Below, in pieces: positions 29,693-32,600 of a DNA stretch of 64,000 nucleotides; the stretch's first letter is position 1, and each line of letters opens with the position of its first letter. The stretch comes from Haliotis rufescens (lineage: Eukaryota), in contig NW_025964383.1 in assembly GCF_023055435.1 (NCBI RefSeq), forward strand, positions 10,168,001 to 10,232,000, read 5' to 3'. Position numbers: made by a program.

Positions 29693-32600
29693 GTACTTTT
29701 ATCATGTTCATATTATTGTTGCTGATTTTCAGAATACCATAATTTATACAATTTGTTAGGTGTGTAATCATTTTACAGATATACGAAGACCGATTGAAAA
29801 TAATAATCGATAATGATAATGGTACTCATGAACGGAAAGGTAAGTGGATGAAACCAAAATAATTCTTCTTAAATAATCTGCTTTACCAAAGCAATAATTC
29901 AGCTGTAATAATTGTCTTAAGACTGCTTGGTAAATACACATGTTAAAGGTTTTGGTAACTTCGTATGCATTGATGCAGAAAATAATGCAAAAAATGCAGT
30001 TGAATGATTTGTTTTGATCATGGCTCTACTATGTCAATTGCGTGTGTTATAAGGCAATGTTTAAATCTGATACAGGTGCAAGGCAACCGAGCACGTCAGT
30101 GGCATTCTTGAACCTGCTGAAACCTATAGCATATCTTACTGGACTGGACTTCCTTGGGCACATTGGTAAGATAACCAGCTCACTTTTGTTGGGTCAAATA
30201 AGTACTATTTACTGTACTGAGGAAAAAACACACATATTTTGATGTAATTATTCTCACACAATCGATCTGCGTTGCGTTCTTCTTCAGATTTGTGTGCATA
30301 TGTATTGTTTATCCTAACCAATAATGCATGTTTCTGTGACCAATAATACATGGTCTTAATTTCAGAGAATGTAAATGACACATCTATAAAAACATGGGTG
30401 CCGTTTGTTGGACCAGGGAGACAACTCTTGTATAACGAGATGCGGTATGAAAATGGCAGCATTATAATCCCCGCCACGGGTGTGTATGCTGTATACAGCC
30501 ATGTCAAGTTCTACACAGAAAGGAATCGTCGTGGAGATACAGAAACTAATTTCCACCATTCCATAATGCGATACAATGCATTAAAACAGACGAATAAAAC
30601 TGCACTTGCTGACGCAGTGTCTGAGAATAAAAACGACATCATTGACGGCGCTAGCCTGGAATACTCCAGTAACATCCATGGACTCCTGCAACTCAATGCT
30701 GGTGATCAGTTGGTTGTTAAAGTATCAAGGATAAACCCACTGAGGCATGACAGAGACTGGCATTACTTTGGTGTATATATGATTTAAACACTACATCTAG
30801 GCAATCTAACAGGTTGTTTTGATATAGAAATGCATTGTGCACCAATGCCTTCACTTCATTTGTTCACTTCATATTGCTTCTTGTTTTAGGTTCAAAAGTG
30901 CAGCTCTTGTACATAAGCATTACAAGTATAGTATGTATAGACCTGCATGCATATGCCATCCTTACGCTGTCAGCAAACTGGCGGGGATAATCTATTTTAT
31001 AATATGGACGAGACTTCCATAAGGTCCTTATTTGGAATCTCGTTACGGGATTCGGAATCCTATAGTCACTACACATGAGAGATAATTACTGACAAAGTCC
31101 TCCTATTGATAAACCGATTGTTCTAAAGAGAAGAGCATCATTAGGATATTTTGTATATATAGTAAACTACGTTTATAACGAGCACGCTTATAACGAACTG
31201 ACGGATATAACGAAAATAGTTTTGTCCCGGCCATTTTCTGTATATATACTTACACCAAACTACGGTTATATCGAACAAATATCAGTGGTCCCTTTGAGTT
31301 CGTTATAACCGTAGTTTACTGTATGTTATTTAAGTTATATTCAAACTGTATTAAGACGAATATATTCAAGATCTGTCCATTCATCTACGTGTACAGTGGT
31401 TTGAAGATAACATTTATCATTCTCTTTGCTGAAGGGATTTTCTATTTACATTGTAGTTTTGCTTATAGAAATGTGTCATGTTGCTGTTTGTAAACTGATA
31501 TCACTCTGATTTCGTACTCGGATGTAGCTATGTGTATGTCATCATCAGGACGTAAGTTGTTTTTGTCATCATGGAATTTGCCCCTCAGCTGATGAACGAC
31601 AACAAATACAACTTCAATCCTTAATTGAATATATTGAGTATTAACGAATATTACCACTTACAACAGGATACTCATTGAAACATATTTTGTTTTGTTTGTT
31701 TTATTTTTAATATTCATTGTAATGATTTGCCTCCAAATCTACTTTAACATGTACATCTGTTGGTTTTTGTTTAAAATAAATGACTAAAACAGTATTATTC
31801 CTACTGATGAATACGTATTTAGTTGTTTACAAATATTTCTTACACGACCTTCTAAGTAAACATGCGATATATACAATGTAAATATTGTATTCGGCAACTA
31901 TGGTACTGTCTACCCACCGTTAAAGGGTGCTTGGTACCTGTAAACTTGCTTCACTTTGTAACGTTATGAAAGGCCGCGTGTGCCCTAAACAAACGTGACG
32001 TCTCATAGACCCTCGTATGTACATATATAAAGTCCGAAGAACATCACATTAAGACGTTATTTGTGTGGCTTGAGATTATTATTCACTTTTGTGCAGAGAG
32101 TAAGTATTCGGCAGGTAACGTTGATTTTTTTCAGCGCATTAAAATAAACTGTGACGGTAGAATTTATACCATATTGCCTCTTGTTGGTTAACCTCCAGTG
32201 AGTAGTTAGGTGTCCTAGTGTTTGAGGACTTCTCTCATTATACACTGGTACTGAACGTAAGGCACCATGCAGCCAATCTGTAAGGTGAGACATACTTACT
32301 TAGAGTCTTAATGCGTCCAATCTCGATGATCATCGCCTGTCCGTGTATACCGTCAGATCTTATAATCGCCTGTCCGTGTATACCGTCAGGTCTGATCATC
32401 GCCTGTCCGTGTACACCGTCAGATCTTATAATCGCCTGTCCGTGTATACCGTCAGGTCTGATCATCGCCTGTCCGTGTATACCGTCAGATCTTATAATCG
32501 CCTGTCCGAGTATACCTTGAGGCTCGATCATCGCCTGCCCGAGTACACCGATGGGTATGATCATCGCCTGTTCGAGTATACCGCCATGTCTGATCATCGC

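What the first reader, a model, noticed from the sequence alone, without database searches (positions are those of the whole stretch)
30521..30538. Overlapping furin-type RNRR and integrin-type RGD motif in the THD of genes 4, 5 and 7
Seen: FYTE-RNRRGD-[TN]ET[ND]F at 30521-30538, 42430-42447 and 59031-59048. The same loop reads RNNHDD (gene 1), AYRHDD (gene 2) and KNHRVD (genes 3, 6). Established: R-x-[KR]-R is the furin consensus, RGD binds integrins, and CD40L uses a KGD motif to engage integrin aIIbb3. The position after the GxYxVYSxVxF strand corresponds to the C-D loop. Inference: a trimer could display three RGDs (a haemocyte adhesion or opsonin role), and cleavage after RNRR would cut the RGD between R and G, acting as an off-switch.
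Basis: partly seen in the sequence, partly recalled or inferred. Interest (0 to 1): 0.72.

Follow-up and report, generated by a model that had tools for sequence, protein, structure and literature searches.

The report
Abalone TNF loop carrying RGD motif
Three neighbouring abalone TNF-like cytokine genes carry the sequence RNRRGD in a variable surface loop; it is most likely an ordinary variant of a receptor-contact loop, not a demonstrated integrin or furin site.

Summary
RNRRGD is encoded at 30521-30538, 42430-42447 and 59031-59048, nowhere else in six frames. It lies in the last exon of three of seven tandem TNF-homology-domain genes (Pfam PF00229). The window matches red abalone (Haliotis rufescens) RefSeq 'tumor necrosis factor-like' proteins residue for residue. 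The gene 7 product shares a 90% cluster with the published disk-abalone AbTNF-alpha.

An AlphaFold model puts R-N at the end of strand C and R-R-G-D-T-E-T in the short C-D loop.

The three copies are not independent: dS is 0.12-0.15. In the clade of 12 genes from six Haliotis species, RGD is present in 9 and R-x-[KR]-R in only 5. The furin pattern is confined to two species and missing from the H. cracherodii counterparts of genes 4 and 7. The motif-defining positions are among the most variable THD columns.

Furin cleavage is unlikely, because the upstream flank is a rigid conserved strand. Integrin binding by RGD is possible but untested. In the gene 7 group a glycosylation sequon directly follows the motif.

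The most likely reading is a lineage-specific state of a receptor-contact loop. Interest is low to moderate.

The parts
30521..30538 (+). RNRRGD codons in gene 4 (residues 151-156 of RefSeq-type protein P0021). R-N ends strand C. R-R-G-D opens the C-D loop.
42430..42447 (+). RNRRGD codons in gene 5 (P0020 residues 152-157)
59031..59048 (+). RNRRGD codons in gene 7 (P0002 residues 152-157), directly followed by an N-E-T glycosylation sequon
29407..30787 (+). Gene 4, a TNF-like type II membrane protein with four exons: 29407-29550 (start codon and hydrophobic anchor), 29779-29839, 30076-30165 (90 nt, encodes the strand-A segment, skipped in some annotated isoforms of relatives) and 30366-30787 (rest of the THD plus stop).
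   Evidence: P0021 maps residue for residue
41338..42696 (+). Gene 5, same four-exon plan. Codon-exact matches at 41338-41481, 41641-41703, 41964-42053 and 42274-42693; exon ends are good to about 2 nt because of split codons.
   Evidence: P0020
57766..59297 (+). Gene 7, same plan. Matches at 57766-57909, 58087-58149, 58562-58651 and 58875-59294. Its product shares a 90% cluster with AbTNF-alpha of H. discus discus.
   Evidence: P0002
6108..6125 (+). Homologous loop of gene 1, RNNHDD
11405..11422 (+). Homologous loop of gene 2, AYRHDD
19113..19130 (+). Homologous loop of gene 3, KNHRVD
47530..47547 (-). Homologous loop of gene 6 (inverted gene), KNHRVD

Best explanation
RNRRGD is the current state, in three recently duplicated red-abalone genes of the AbTNF-alpha type, of the short and fast-evolving C-D loop of the TNF homology domain.

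Across Haliotis the loop has a fixed skeleton, x-N-x-x-x-D. Within this clade Arg is also fixed at the fourth position. The other positions drift among R/K/G/N, R/H/N and G/D/V/S/R. A basic-rich loop of this kind reaches both R-x-R-R and R-G-D by single substitutions. The three copies then share the result by descent, and possibly by gene conversion between the tandem THD exons.

By analogy with RANKL, where the C-D loop is one of four receptor-contact loops, the loop most likely contributes to binding or discrimination of TNF receptors. That makes it a natural place for paralogue-specific change. On this reading the matches to the furin and integrin consensus are by-products.

Shown: position, fold, distribution, variability and recent duplication.

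Inferred: the receptor-contact role, and the absence of cleavage or integrin binding.
For: 1. THD identity and fold. Pfam PF00229 matches all seven genes. The AlphaFold model of P0021 has mean pLDDT 82, with THD 10-residue block means of 90-98 from residue 121 on. The 50 top-ranked Foldseek PDB matches shown are TNF-family ligand chains (mostly TNF-alpha, also RANKL, TL1A and LIGHT), with target TM 0.77-0.87.

2. Loop position. Strand 137-152, loop 153-159, strand 160-169.

3. Variability. Positions 151, 153, 154 and 155 rank 14th, 16th, 24th and 17th of 135 THD columns by entropy in 23 Haliotis sequences. N152 and D156 rank 87th and 88th. Across 54 family members the loop varies in both length and sequence.

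4. Ortholog pairs. Three H. rufescens/H. cracherodii pairs differ at 4 of 18 motif residues against 20 of 387 elsewhere in the exon, Fisher p = 0.017.

5. Distribution. RGD is in 9 of 12 clade genes and R-x-[KR]-R in 5 of 12.

6. Recent common origin. dS 0.12-0.15 and omega 0.24-0.32 among genes 4, 5 and 7.

7. Mosaic divergence. For gene 5 and its counterpart, the N-terminal part differs at 11 of 103 residues and the THD exon at 2 of 135, p = 0.003. Gene 4 shows the opposite trend (4 of 103 against 14 of 135, p = 0.08). The gene 4 THD does not group with its N-terminal counterpart P0005 in the NJ tree.

8. Precedent. The RANKL C-D loop is a solvent-accessible receptor-contact loop (PMC5126682 passages; PMC8781899 passages).

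9. Independent occurrence. A distant homologue, P0046, has ERGDTD in the same loop: 1 of 38 non-Haliotis-listed representatives in the alignment. RGD therefore turns up in this loop without shared ancestry.
Against: - RGD is kept in 9 of 12 clade genes from 4 of 6 species, including the Australian H. rubra. That is more than pure drift at the middle position might suggest.
- Purifying selection on the exon as a whole (omega about 0.3) does not say what the loop does.
- In the monomer model RGD sits in a well-defined loop of the kind integrin ligands use.
- No R-x-[KR]-R occurs anywhere else in the 22 Haliotis proteins checked, stalks included. If a convertase acts on these proteins at a canonical site, this loop is the only candidate.
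- No receptor complex, trimer model or accessibility calculation was possible here.
- The Fisher test rests on small counts and on orthology assigned by me.
Confidence: 0.62

Rival explanations
1. The RGD is a working integrin-binding site. The trimeric ligand, membrane-bound or shed, displays three RGD loops and engages RGD-binding integrins on haemocytes. It would act as an adhesion or co-receptor signal alongside TNF-receptor binding.
For: - RGD lies in a 7-residue loop between two strands, and the 151-160 block has mean pLDDT 90.
- RGD is present in 9 of 12 clade genes from 4 of 6 species.
- Oyster integrins bind RGD peptide, and a population of oyster haemocytes is labelled by RGD peptide (PMC7390872 passages; PMC9294365 abstract).
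- AbTNF-alpha is induced in gill by bacteria and LPS (as cited and passages).
- CD40L shows that TNF ligands can bind integrins (PMC10416995).
Against: - RGD is lost in H. cracherodii P0004 (RGH) and absent in H. asinina (RDD) and H. diversicolor (RRE).
- An N-E-T sequon starts at the residue after D in 3 of 3 members of the gene 7 orthogroup. If used, the glycan would sit against the motif.
- R154 and D156 are also kept in paralogues with V, S or D in the middle, so they are conserved for some other reason.
- RGD is expected by chance in about 4% of proteins of this size.
- The C-D loop is a receptor-contact loop in RANKL. Integrin and TNF-receptor binding might therefore compete.
- No abalone integrin data were examined.
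- No paper in the searched library links RGD to abalone TNF.
Confidence: 0.15
2. RNRR is a working proprotein-convertase site. Furin-type enzymes nick the THD between R154 and G155. This would destroy the RGD and perhaps inactivate the ligand, as in the reader's off-switch idea.
For: - The core pattern R-x-R-R is present with Gly at P1'.
- The ectodomain of a type II membrane protein passes through the secretory pathway.
- This is the only R-x-[KR]-R in the 22 Haliotis TNF-like proteins checked.
Against: - The pattern is found in 5 of 12 clade genes, in only two species.
- It is absent from the H. cracherodii counterparts of genes 4 and 7 and from AbTNF-alpha.
- P4 and P3 are the last residues of strand C, and P14-P7 is the core of that strand with invariant V, H and F. 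Furin sites need flexible accessible flanks (PMC3281273).
- The loop is only 7 residues long and confidently modelled.
- Known TNF ligands are processed in the stalk (PMC4648319).
- A cut here would leave strands A-C on the membrane stub and split the jelly roll.
Confidence: 0.05
3. The loop differences among paralogues are driven by diversifying selection, for example co-evolution with an expanded TNF-receptor set or escape from pathogen decoys. RNRRGD would be one selected specificity variant, not a neutral state.
For: - Substitutions are enriched in the motif relative to the rest of the exon: 4 of 18 against 20 of 387, p = 0.017.
- TNF ligand and receptor families are expanded in molluscs (preprint 10.1101/2024.07.27.603686 passages).
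- Each of the four paralogue groups in the window has its own loop state.
Against: - No site-wise dN/dS test was possible, because DNA was available only for the window genes.
- Whole-exon omega is 0.24-0.32.
- The counts are small, and relaxed constraint on a surface loop gives the same pattern.
Confidence: 0.15

Closest known systems
AbTNF-alpha of disk abalone Haliotis discus discus (ACF75368.1; De Zoysa et al. 2009, seen only as a citation)
   Same: It shares a 90%-identity cluster with the gene 7 product. It has the same 239-aa plan and the same loop skeleton, with RGD followed by N-E-T.
   Different: Its loop reads GNRRGD, so the furin-type P4 Arg is missing. I could not read the original paper, so I do not know whether it comments on RGD.
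C-D loop of vertebrate RANKL and TNF-alpha
   Same: The motif occupies the same structural position after strand C. In RANKL this loop is solvent-accessible and contacts RANK. The phmmer alignment even pairs the abalone G-D with a G-D in RANKL.
   Different: Sequence identity is only about 20%. No receptor for the abalone ligands was examined. Neither vertebrate loop was seen here to carry RGD or a furin pattern.
CD40L KGD motif and integrin binding
   Same: It is a TNF-family ligand reported to bind integrins.
   Different: KGD (residues 115-117) lies at the N-terminus of soluble CD40L, outside the C-D loop. PMC10416995 reports alphaIIbbeta3 binding by a CD40L lacking KGD and places the integrin sites on the outer surface and at the trimer interface.
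Furin-shed TNF ligands (BAFF, APRIL, EDA and TWEAK are recalled as examples; the general statement is from PMC4648319)
   Same: Both involve a basic convertase-type pattern in the ectodomain of a type II TNF ligand.
   Different: Those ligands are cut in the stalk and release an intact THD. Here the pattern is inside the THD, and no R-x-[KR]-R is present in any Haliotis stalk (0 of 22 proteins).
Engineered integrin- or vasculature-targeted TNF (RGD4C-TNF, NGR-TNF)
   Same: These are TNF trimers carrying a short homing motif. An NGR-TNF crystal structure (6rmj) is among the fold matches. RGD4C-TNF appears in a search listing (PMC3086622; not read).
   Different: As far as I recall, in those constructs the peptide is fused to the N-terminus, not built into the C-D loop, and they are artificial.

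Membership tests
TNF ligand superfamily (THD proteins) | Significant match to the TNF homology domain profile | tested here: met
   PF00229 with E 7e-16 to 8e-15 and 55-59 bits against a cut-off of 23, for 7 of 7 genes.
TNF ligand superfamily (THD proteins) | Ten-strand jelly-roll fold like solved TNF ligands | tested here: met
   AlphaFold THD block means 90-98 from residue 121 on. The 50 top-ranked Foldseek matches shown are TNF-family ligand chains (mostly TNF-alpha, also RANKL, TL1A and LIGHT), with E 2e-12 to 7e-11 and target TM 0.77-0.87.
TNF ligand superfamily (THD proteins) | Type II membrane topology: short N-terminus, one hydrophobic anchor, stalk, C-terminal THD | tested here: met
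   Exon 1 encodes a short N-terminus followed by about 20 hydrophobic residues, modelled as helix 2-32. No dedicated transmembrane predictor was run.
TNF ligand superfamily (THD proteins) | Homotrimer that binds a TNF receptor | not testable with these tools
   Only single-chain prediction was available, and no receptor was examined.
AbTNF-alpha orthogroup | At least 90% identity cluster with the published disk-abalone protein | tested here: met
   P0002 (gene 7) and P0022 (ACF75368.1) are in one 90% cluster. Genes 4 and 5 are in sister clusters.
Furin / proprotein-convertase substrates | Core R-x-[KR]-R before the scissile bond | tested here: met
   RNRR followed by G in genes 4, 5 and 7.
Furin / proprotein-convertase substrates | Flexible, solvent-accessible flanks P14-P7 and P3'-P6' (PMC3281273) | tested here: not met
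   P14-P7 corresponds to residues 141-148 inside strand C (DSSP strand 137-152, block pLDDT 95), with invariant V141, H144 and F147. P6' already begins strand D. This rests on a monomer model only.
Furin / proprotein-convertase substrates | Site conserved among orthologues | tested here: not met
   Present in 5 of 12 clade genes from 2 of 6 species.
Furin / proprotein-convertase substrates | Observed cleavage | not testable with these tools
   No protein-level data were available.
RGD integrin ligands | R-G-D tripeptide | tested here: met
RGD integrin ligands | Motif on an exposed loop | tested here: inconclusive
   The motif is in a 7-residue loop between strands C and D of the monomer model. 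The homologous RANKL loop is described as solvent-accessible. No coordinates were returned, so accessibility in the monomer or the trimer was not computed.
RGD integrin ligands | Conservation among orthologues | tested here: inconclusive
   Present in 9 of 12 clade genes from 4 of 6 species. Lost in one H. cracherodii orthologue.
RGD integrin ligands | Motif not masked by a glycan | tested here: inconclusive
   An N-E-T sequon directly follows the motif in gene 7, AbTNF-alpha and P0004. There is none in genes 4 and 5. Occupancy is unknown.
RGD integrin ligands | Measured integrin binding | not testable with these tools
   None available.

The most novel reading that the evidence does not exclude
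A subset of abalone TNF-alpha-type cytokines is a natural 'integrin-addressed' TNF. The trimer would present three RGD loops at the C-D position and engage haemocyte integrins together with, or instead of, a TNF receptor. Paralogue- and species-specific tuning would come from the neighbouring glycan sequon and, in H. rufescens and H. cracherodii, from a convertase-sensitive RNRR that removes the RGD.
Probability: 0.07. Interest if true: 0.6.

Novelty: already known. Interest (0 to 1): 0.25.

Why it matters
If the RGD were functional, it would be a natural case of a TNF-family cytokine using a THD loop to address integrins. It would link two haemocyte signalling systems in a farmed mollusc whose TNF family is expanded.

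As the evidence stands, the value is more modest. The window shows a tandem array of seven TNF-like genes. Their main paralogue-specific difference within the THD sits in the C-D loop and a few other surface positions. That makes the array a tidy system for studying how ligand-receptor specificity diversifies after duplication.

The genes themselves are already annotated, and one orthologue was characterised in 2009.

Tried and rejected
- Stalk convertase site. I looked for a conventional site that would make the loop pattern redundant. There is none: R-x-[KR]-R occurs only in the loop, in 6 of 22 Haliotis proteins, which correspond to 5 genes.

- Exon mapping. A first tblastn mapping with a 95% identity filter lost exons, and a looser one was still incomplete. 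Exact codon matching replaced them.

- Limits of the codon comparison. Gene 6 is offset by one codon near its 5' end, so its values against other genes are unreliable. dS between gene 3 and genes 4, 5 and 7 is saturated (no estimate).

- The NJ tree has no bootstrap support. I use it only to show which sequences group together.

- Solvent accessibility and trimer geometry could not be computed. The structure tool returns no coordinates and models one chain. The second structure job, the atlas search, the third word-index protein search, and the PHROGs, PADLOC and NCBIfam libraries were not used because they would not bear on the question.

- The genome-contig collection holds only bacteria and archaea and was not scanned.

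The supplementary trees of preprint 10.1101/2024.07.27.603686 may include these paralogues, and I did not see them. The original AbTNF-alpha paper (De Zoysa et al. 2009) is not in the library.

- The statement that no paper links RGD or furin to abalone TNF rests only on searches and on the passages.

- I considered assembly duplication as the source of the three copies and rejected it. The copies differ at synonymous and non-synonymous sites, and each has its own N-terminal exons and its own H. cracherodii counterpart.

- The contig is not human. It is abalone, as shown by named RefSeq proteins. The N run at 14260-14536 was left as it is.

- The spliced models were searched exon by exon. Where a full-length protein was needed (alignments A1 and A2, structure job 27), I used the database's own annotated proteins returned by the tools.
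Full report
**What is in the sequence**

The stated coordinates encode R-N-R-R-G-D in frame with a long open frame. A six-frame scan finds the hexapeptide three times only, at 30521-30538, 42430-42447 and 59031-59048. All three are on the + strand, each preceded by FYTE and followed by [TN]-E-T-[ND]-F.

One KNHRVD is on the minus strand.

The window has one N run, 14260-14536. I left it alone.

**What the genes are**

The seven open frames around these loops each match Pfam TNF (PF00229), with E 7e-16 to 8e-15 and 55-59 bits against a cut-off of 23. 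The last-exon translation of gene 4 finds RANKL and TNF-alpha chains in the PDB sequence set; the best is 5bnq at E 3.5e-6.

A word-index search with that exon alone returned 19 proteins at E <= 1e-5 among 24 candidates. All were named Haliotis proteins from H. rufescens, H. cracherodii, H. asinina and H. rubra. A 'longer' search added three more at E <= 1e-20 among 479 candidates, from H. rubra, H. diversicolor and H. cracherodii.

Five annotated H. rufescens proteins map onto the window residue for residue as four-exon genes. The window is therefore red-abalone reference sequence, and the genes are already annotated as 'tumor necrosis factor-like'. It is not human.

Cluster look-up shows that the gene 7 product shares a 90% cluster with AbTNF-alpha of H. 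discus discus (ACF75368.1). Passages seen name that protein as the first molluscan TNF-alpha, induced in gill by bacteria and LPS. I could not read the 2009 paper itself.

For full-length alignments and the structure job I used the database's own annotated proteins.

**Anatomy of gene 4**

| Exon | Coordinates | Content |
|---|---|---|
| 1 | 29407-29550 | short N-terminus and a hydrophobic anchor |
| 2 | 29779-29839 | stalk |
| 3 | 30076-30165 (90 nt) | the L-L-K-P-I-A-Y segment, modelled as the first THD strand |
| 4 | 30366-30787 | the rest of the THD |

Genes 5 and 7 have the same plan.

**Where the motif sits**

An AlphaFold model of the gene 4 protein was built from an alignment of 54 family members. 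Mean pLDDT is 82, and the THD 10-residue blocks from residue 121 on are 90-98. DSSP gives a strand at 137-152, a loop at 153-159 and a strand at 160-169.

R151 and N152 therefore end strand C, and R153-R154-G155-D156-T157-E158-T159 is the C-D loop. The 151-160 block has mean pLDDT 90.

The 50 top-ranked Foldseek PDB matches shown are TNF-family ligand chains, mostly TNF-alpha, with RANKL, TL1A and LIGHT also present; target TM is 0.77-0.87.

**Independence and chance**

Genes 4, 5 and 7 differ by dS 0.12-0.15 and dN about 0.035 over 135 codons, with omega 0.24-0.32. Within the motif the only DNA difference is one synonymous change. The three copies are one event inherited by recent duplication.

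There are signs of exchange between the tandem THD exons.
- Gene 5 and its H. cracherodii counterpart differ at 11 of 103 N-terminal residues but only 2 of 135 THD residues (p = 0.003).
- Gene 4 shows the opposite trend: 4 of 103 against 14 of 135 (p = 0.08).
- The gene 4 THD does not group with its N-terminal counterpart in the NJ tree (no bootstrap).

From the family's own composition, the overlapping pattern is expected about 2e-4 times per protein of this size, and RGD alone about 0.04 times.

**Conservation**

The clade that contains genes 4, 5 and 7 has 12 distinct genes in the sequences I obtained.

| Species / gene | Loop |
|---|---|
| H. rufescens genes 4, 5, 7 | RNRRGD |
| H. cracherodii P0003 | RNRRGD |
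| H. cracherodii P0006 | RNRRGD |
| H. cracherodii P0005 | KNHRGD |
| H. cracherodii P0014 | RNHRGD |
| H. cracherodii P0004 | GNRRGH |
| H. discus discus AbTNF-alpha | GNRRGD |
| H. rubra P0082 | KNRRGD |
| H. asinina P0007 | KNHRDD |
| H. diversicolor P0083 | NNRRRE |

RGD is present in 9 of 12 genes from 4 of 6 species. R-x-[KR]-R is present in 5 of 12, in two species only. It is missing from the H. cracherodii counterparts of genes 4 and 7.

In an alignment of 23 Haliotis sequences, positions 151, 153, 154 and 155 rank 14th, 16th, 24th and 17th of 135 THD columns by entropy. N152 and D156 are nearly invariant.

Three H. rufescens/H. cracherodii pairs differ at 4 of 18 motif residues against 20 of 387 elsewhere in the exon, Fisher p = 0.017. 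The orthology was assigned by me.

Across 54 family members the loop varies in length and sequence. One distant representative, P0046, carries ERGDTD at the same place independently: 1 of the 38 representatives in that alignment.

**The furin reading**

The core pattern is there, but several points count against it.
- The published description of furin sites requires flexible, accessible flanks at P14-P7 and P3'-P6' (PMC3281273 passages). Here P14-P7 is the centre of strand C, with three residues invariant in all 23 Haliotis sequences.
- The loop is short and confidently modelled.
- TNF ligands are released by cuts in the stalk (PMC4648319 passages). A cut here would split the jelly roll.
- The pattern is poorly conserved.

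For these reasons I rate cleavage as unlikely.

One point goes the other way. No other R-x-[KR]-R exists in the 22 Haliotis proteins checked, stalks included.

**The integrin reading**

Points in favour:
- RGD in a loop between two strands is a plausible presentation.
- Molluscan haemocytes have RGD-binding integrins, shown for oyster (PMC7390872 passages; PMC9294365 abstract).
- Nine of twelve clade genes keep the tripeptide.

Points against:
- R154 and D156 are also kept in paralogues whose middle residue is V, S or D, so those two residues are conserved for another reason.
- One orthologue has lost the motif (RGH).
- In the gene 7 orthogroup an N-E-T sequon begins at the residue after D in 3 of 3 members.
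- The homologous loop of RANKL is a receptor-contact loop (PMC5126682 passages; PMC8781899 passages).
- I found no paper linking RGD with abalone TNF. In search 15 the only paper holding abalone, Haliotis, tumor necrosis factor and RGD as substantive hits has RGD only in its reference list. One search returned one unrelated paper.

**Conclusion**

The most likely explanation is a lineage-specific state of a variable, probably receptor-contacting, THD loop, shared by three young paralogues.

The integrin reading remains open at low probability. The furin and off-switch reading is improbable.

The genes are known and annotated, so novelty is low. What remains of interest is the possibility, untested, of a natural RGD-bearing TNF ligand.

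**Limits**

- The model is a monomer only.
- No coordinates were returned, so accessibility was not measured.
- No receptor or integrin sequences from abalone were examined.
- Site-wise selection tests were not possible without coding DNA from other species.
- Closed collections and supplements were not seen.

Noticed in passing
30076-30165 (gene 4); also about 41962-42054 (gene 5) and 58560-58652 (gene 7): The 90-nt third exon encodes the L-L-K-P-[IV]-A segment, modelled as the first THD strand (E86-90). Several annotated isoforms of relatives lack this segment in the alignment (P0001, P0008, P0012 and P0015, 205-209 aa). Such isoforms stay in frame but would lack strand A.
   Followed up: partly
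genes 4, 5 and 7 against H. cracherodii P0005, P0003 and P0004: Divergence is mosaic. The N-terminal exons and the THD exon of the same gene pair differ at very different rates (11/103 against 2/135 for gene 5, and 4/103 against 14/135 for gene 4). This suggests gene conversion or exon exchange in the tandem array.
   Followed up: partly
32327-34751, 45847-46324, 60364-61637: Three arrays of one 33-bp satellite (73, 14 and 39 copies, 79-82% matches) lie between the TNF genes and account for the GC-rich stretches.
   Followed up: no
55493-56788 and 62982-63997: There is a 99-bp tandem array (13 copies, 97% matches) upstream of gene 7, and a G-rich 38-bp array (27 copies) running to within a few bases of the window end.
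   Followed up: no
47281-49714, minus strand: Gene 6 is inverted relative to the other six genes. Its THD exon is close to that of gene 3 (dS 0.29; same KNHRVD loop), which points to an inverted duplication within the array.
   Followed up: partly
21835-22100; also 14-230, 13285-13520, 37208-37388, 40825-41077: A dispersed repeat of about 250 bp (82-93% identity, both orientations) is scattered between the genes. It is probably a short interspersed element.
   Followed up: no
stalks of genes 4, 5 and 7 (exon 2/3 junction, about 29830-30090 in gene 4): No R-x-[KR]-R occurs in any Haliotis stalk. A basic stretch ending in K-G-A-R-Q is shared by genes 4, 5 and 7 just upstream of the first strand. 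That is roughly where, as I recall, vertebrate TNF is shed.
   Followed up: no
representative proteins P0034 (3828 aa) and P0037 (6458 aa): Two very long proteins in the representative library scored E about 1e-8 with no single stretch reported. P0037 holds 26 copies of a K-L-R-K-R-K-K-R segment and P0034 a repeated N-R-G-D-T-L-T-F segment. They may be multi-THD repeat proteins or assembly artefacts.
   Followed up: no
11228-11674 (gene 2): No named H. rufescens protein for gene 2 came back from the searches. The closest is the unnamed representative P0024 (246 aa), which carries the same AYRHDD loop.
   Followed up: no
29637-29690: An (AAT)n microsatellite lies in intron 1 of gene 4.
   Followed up: no
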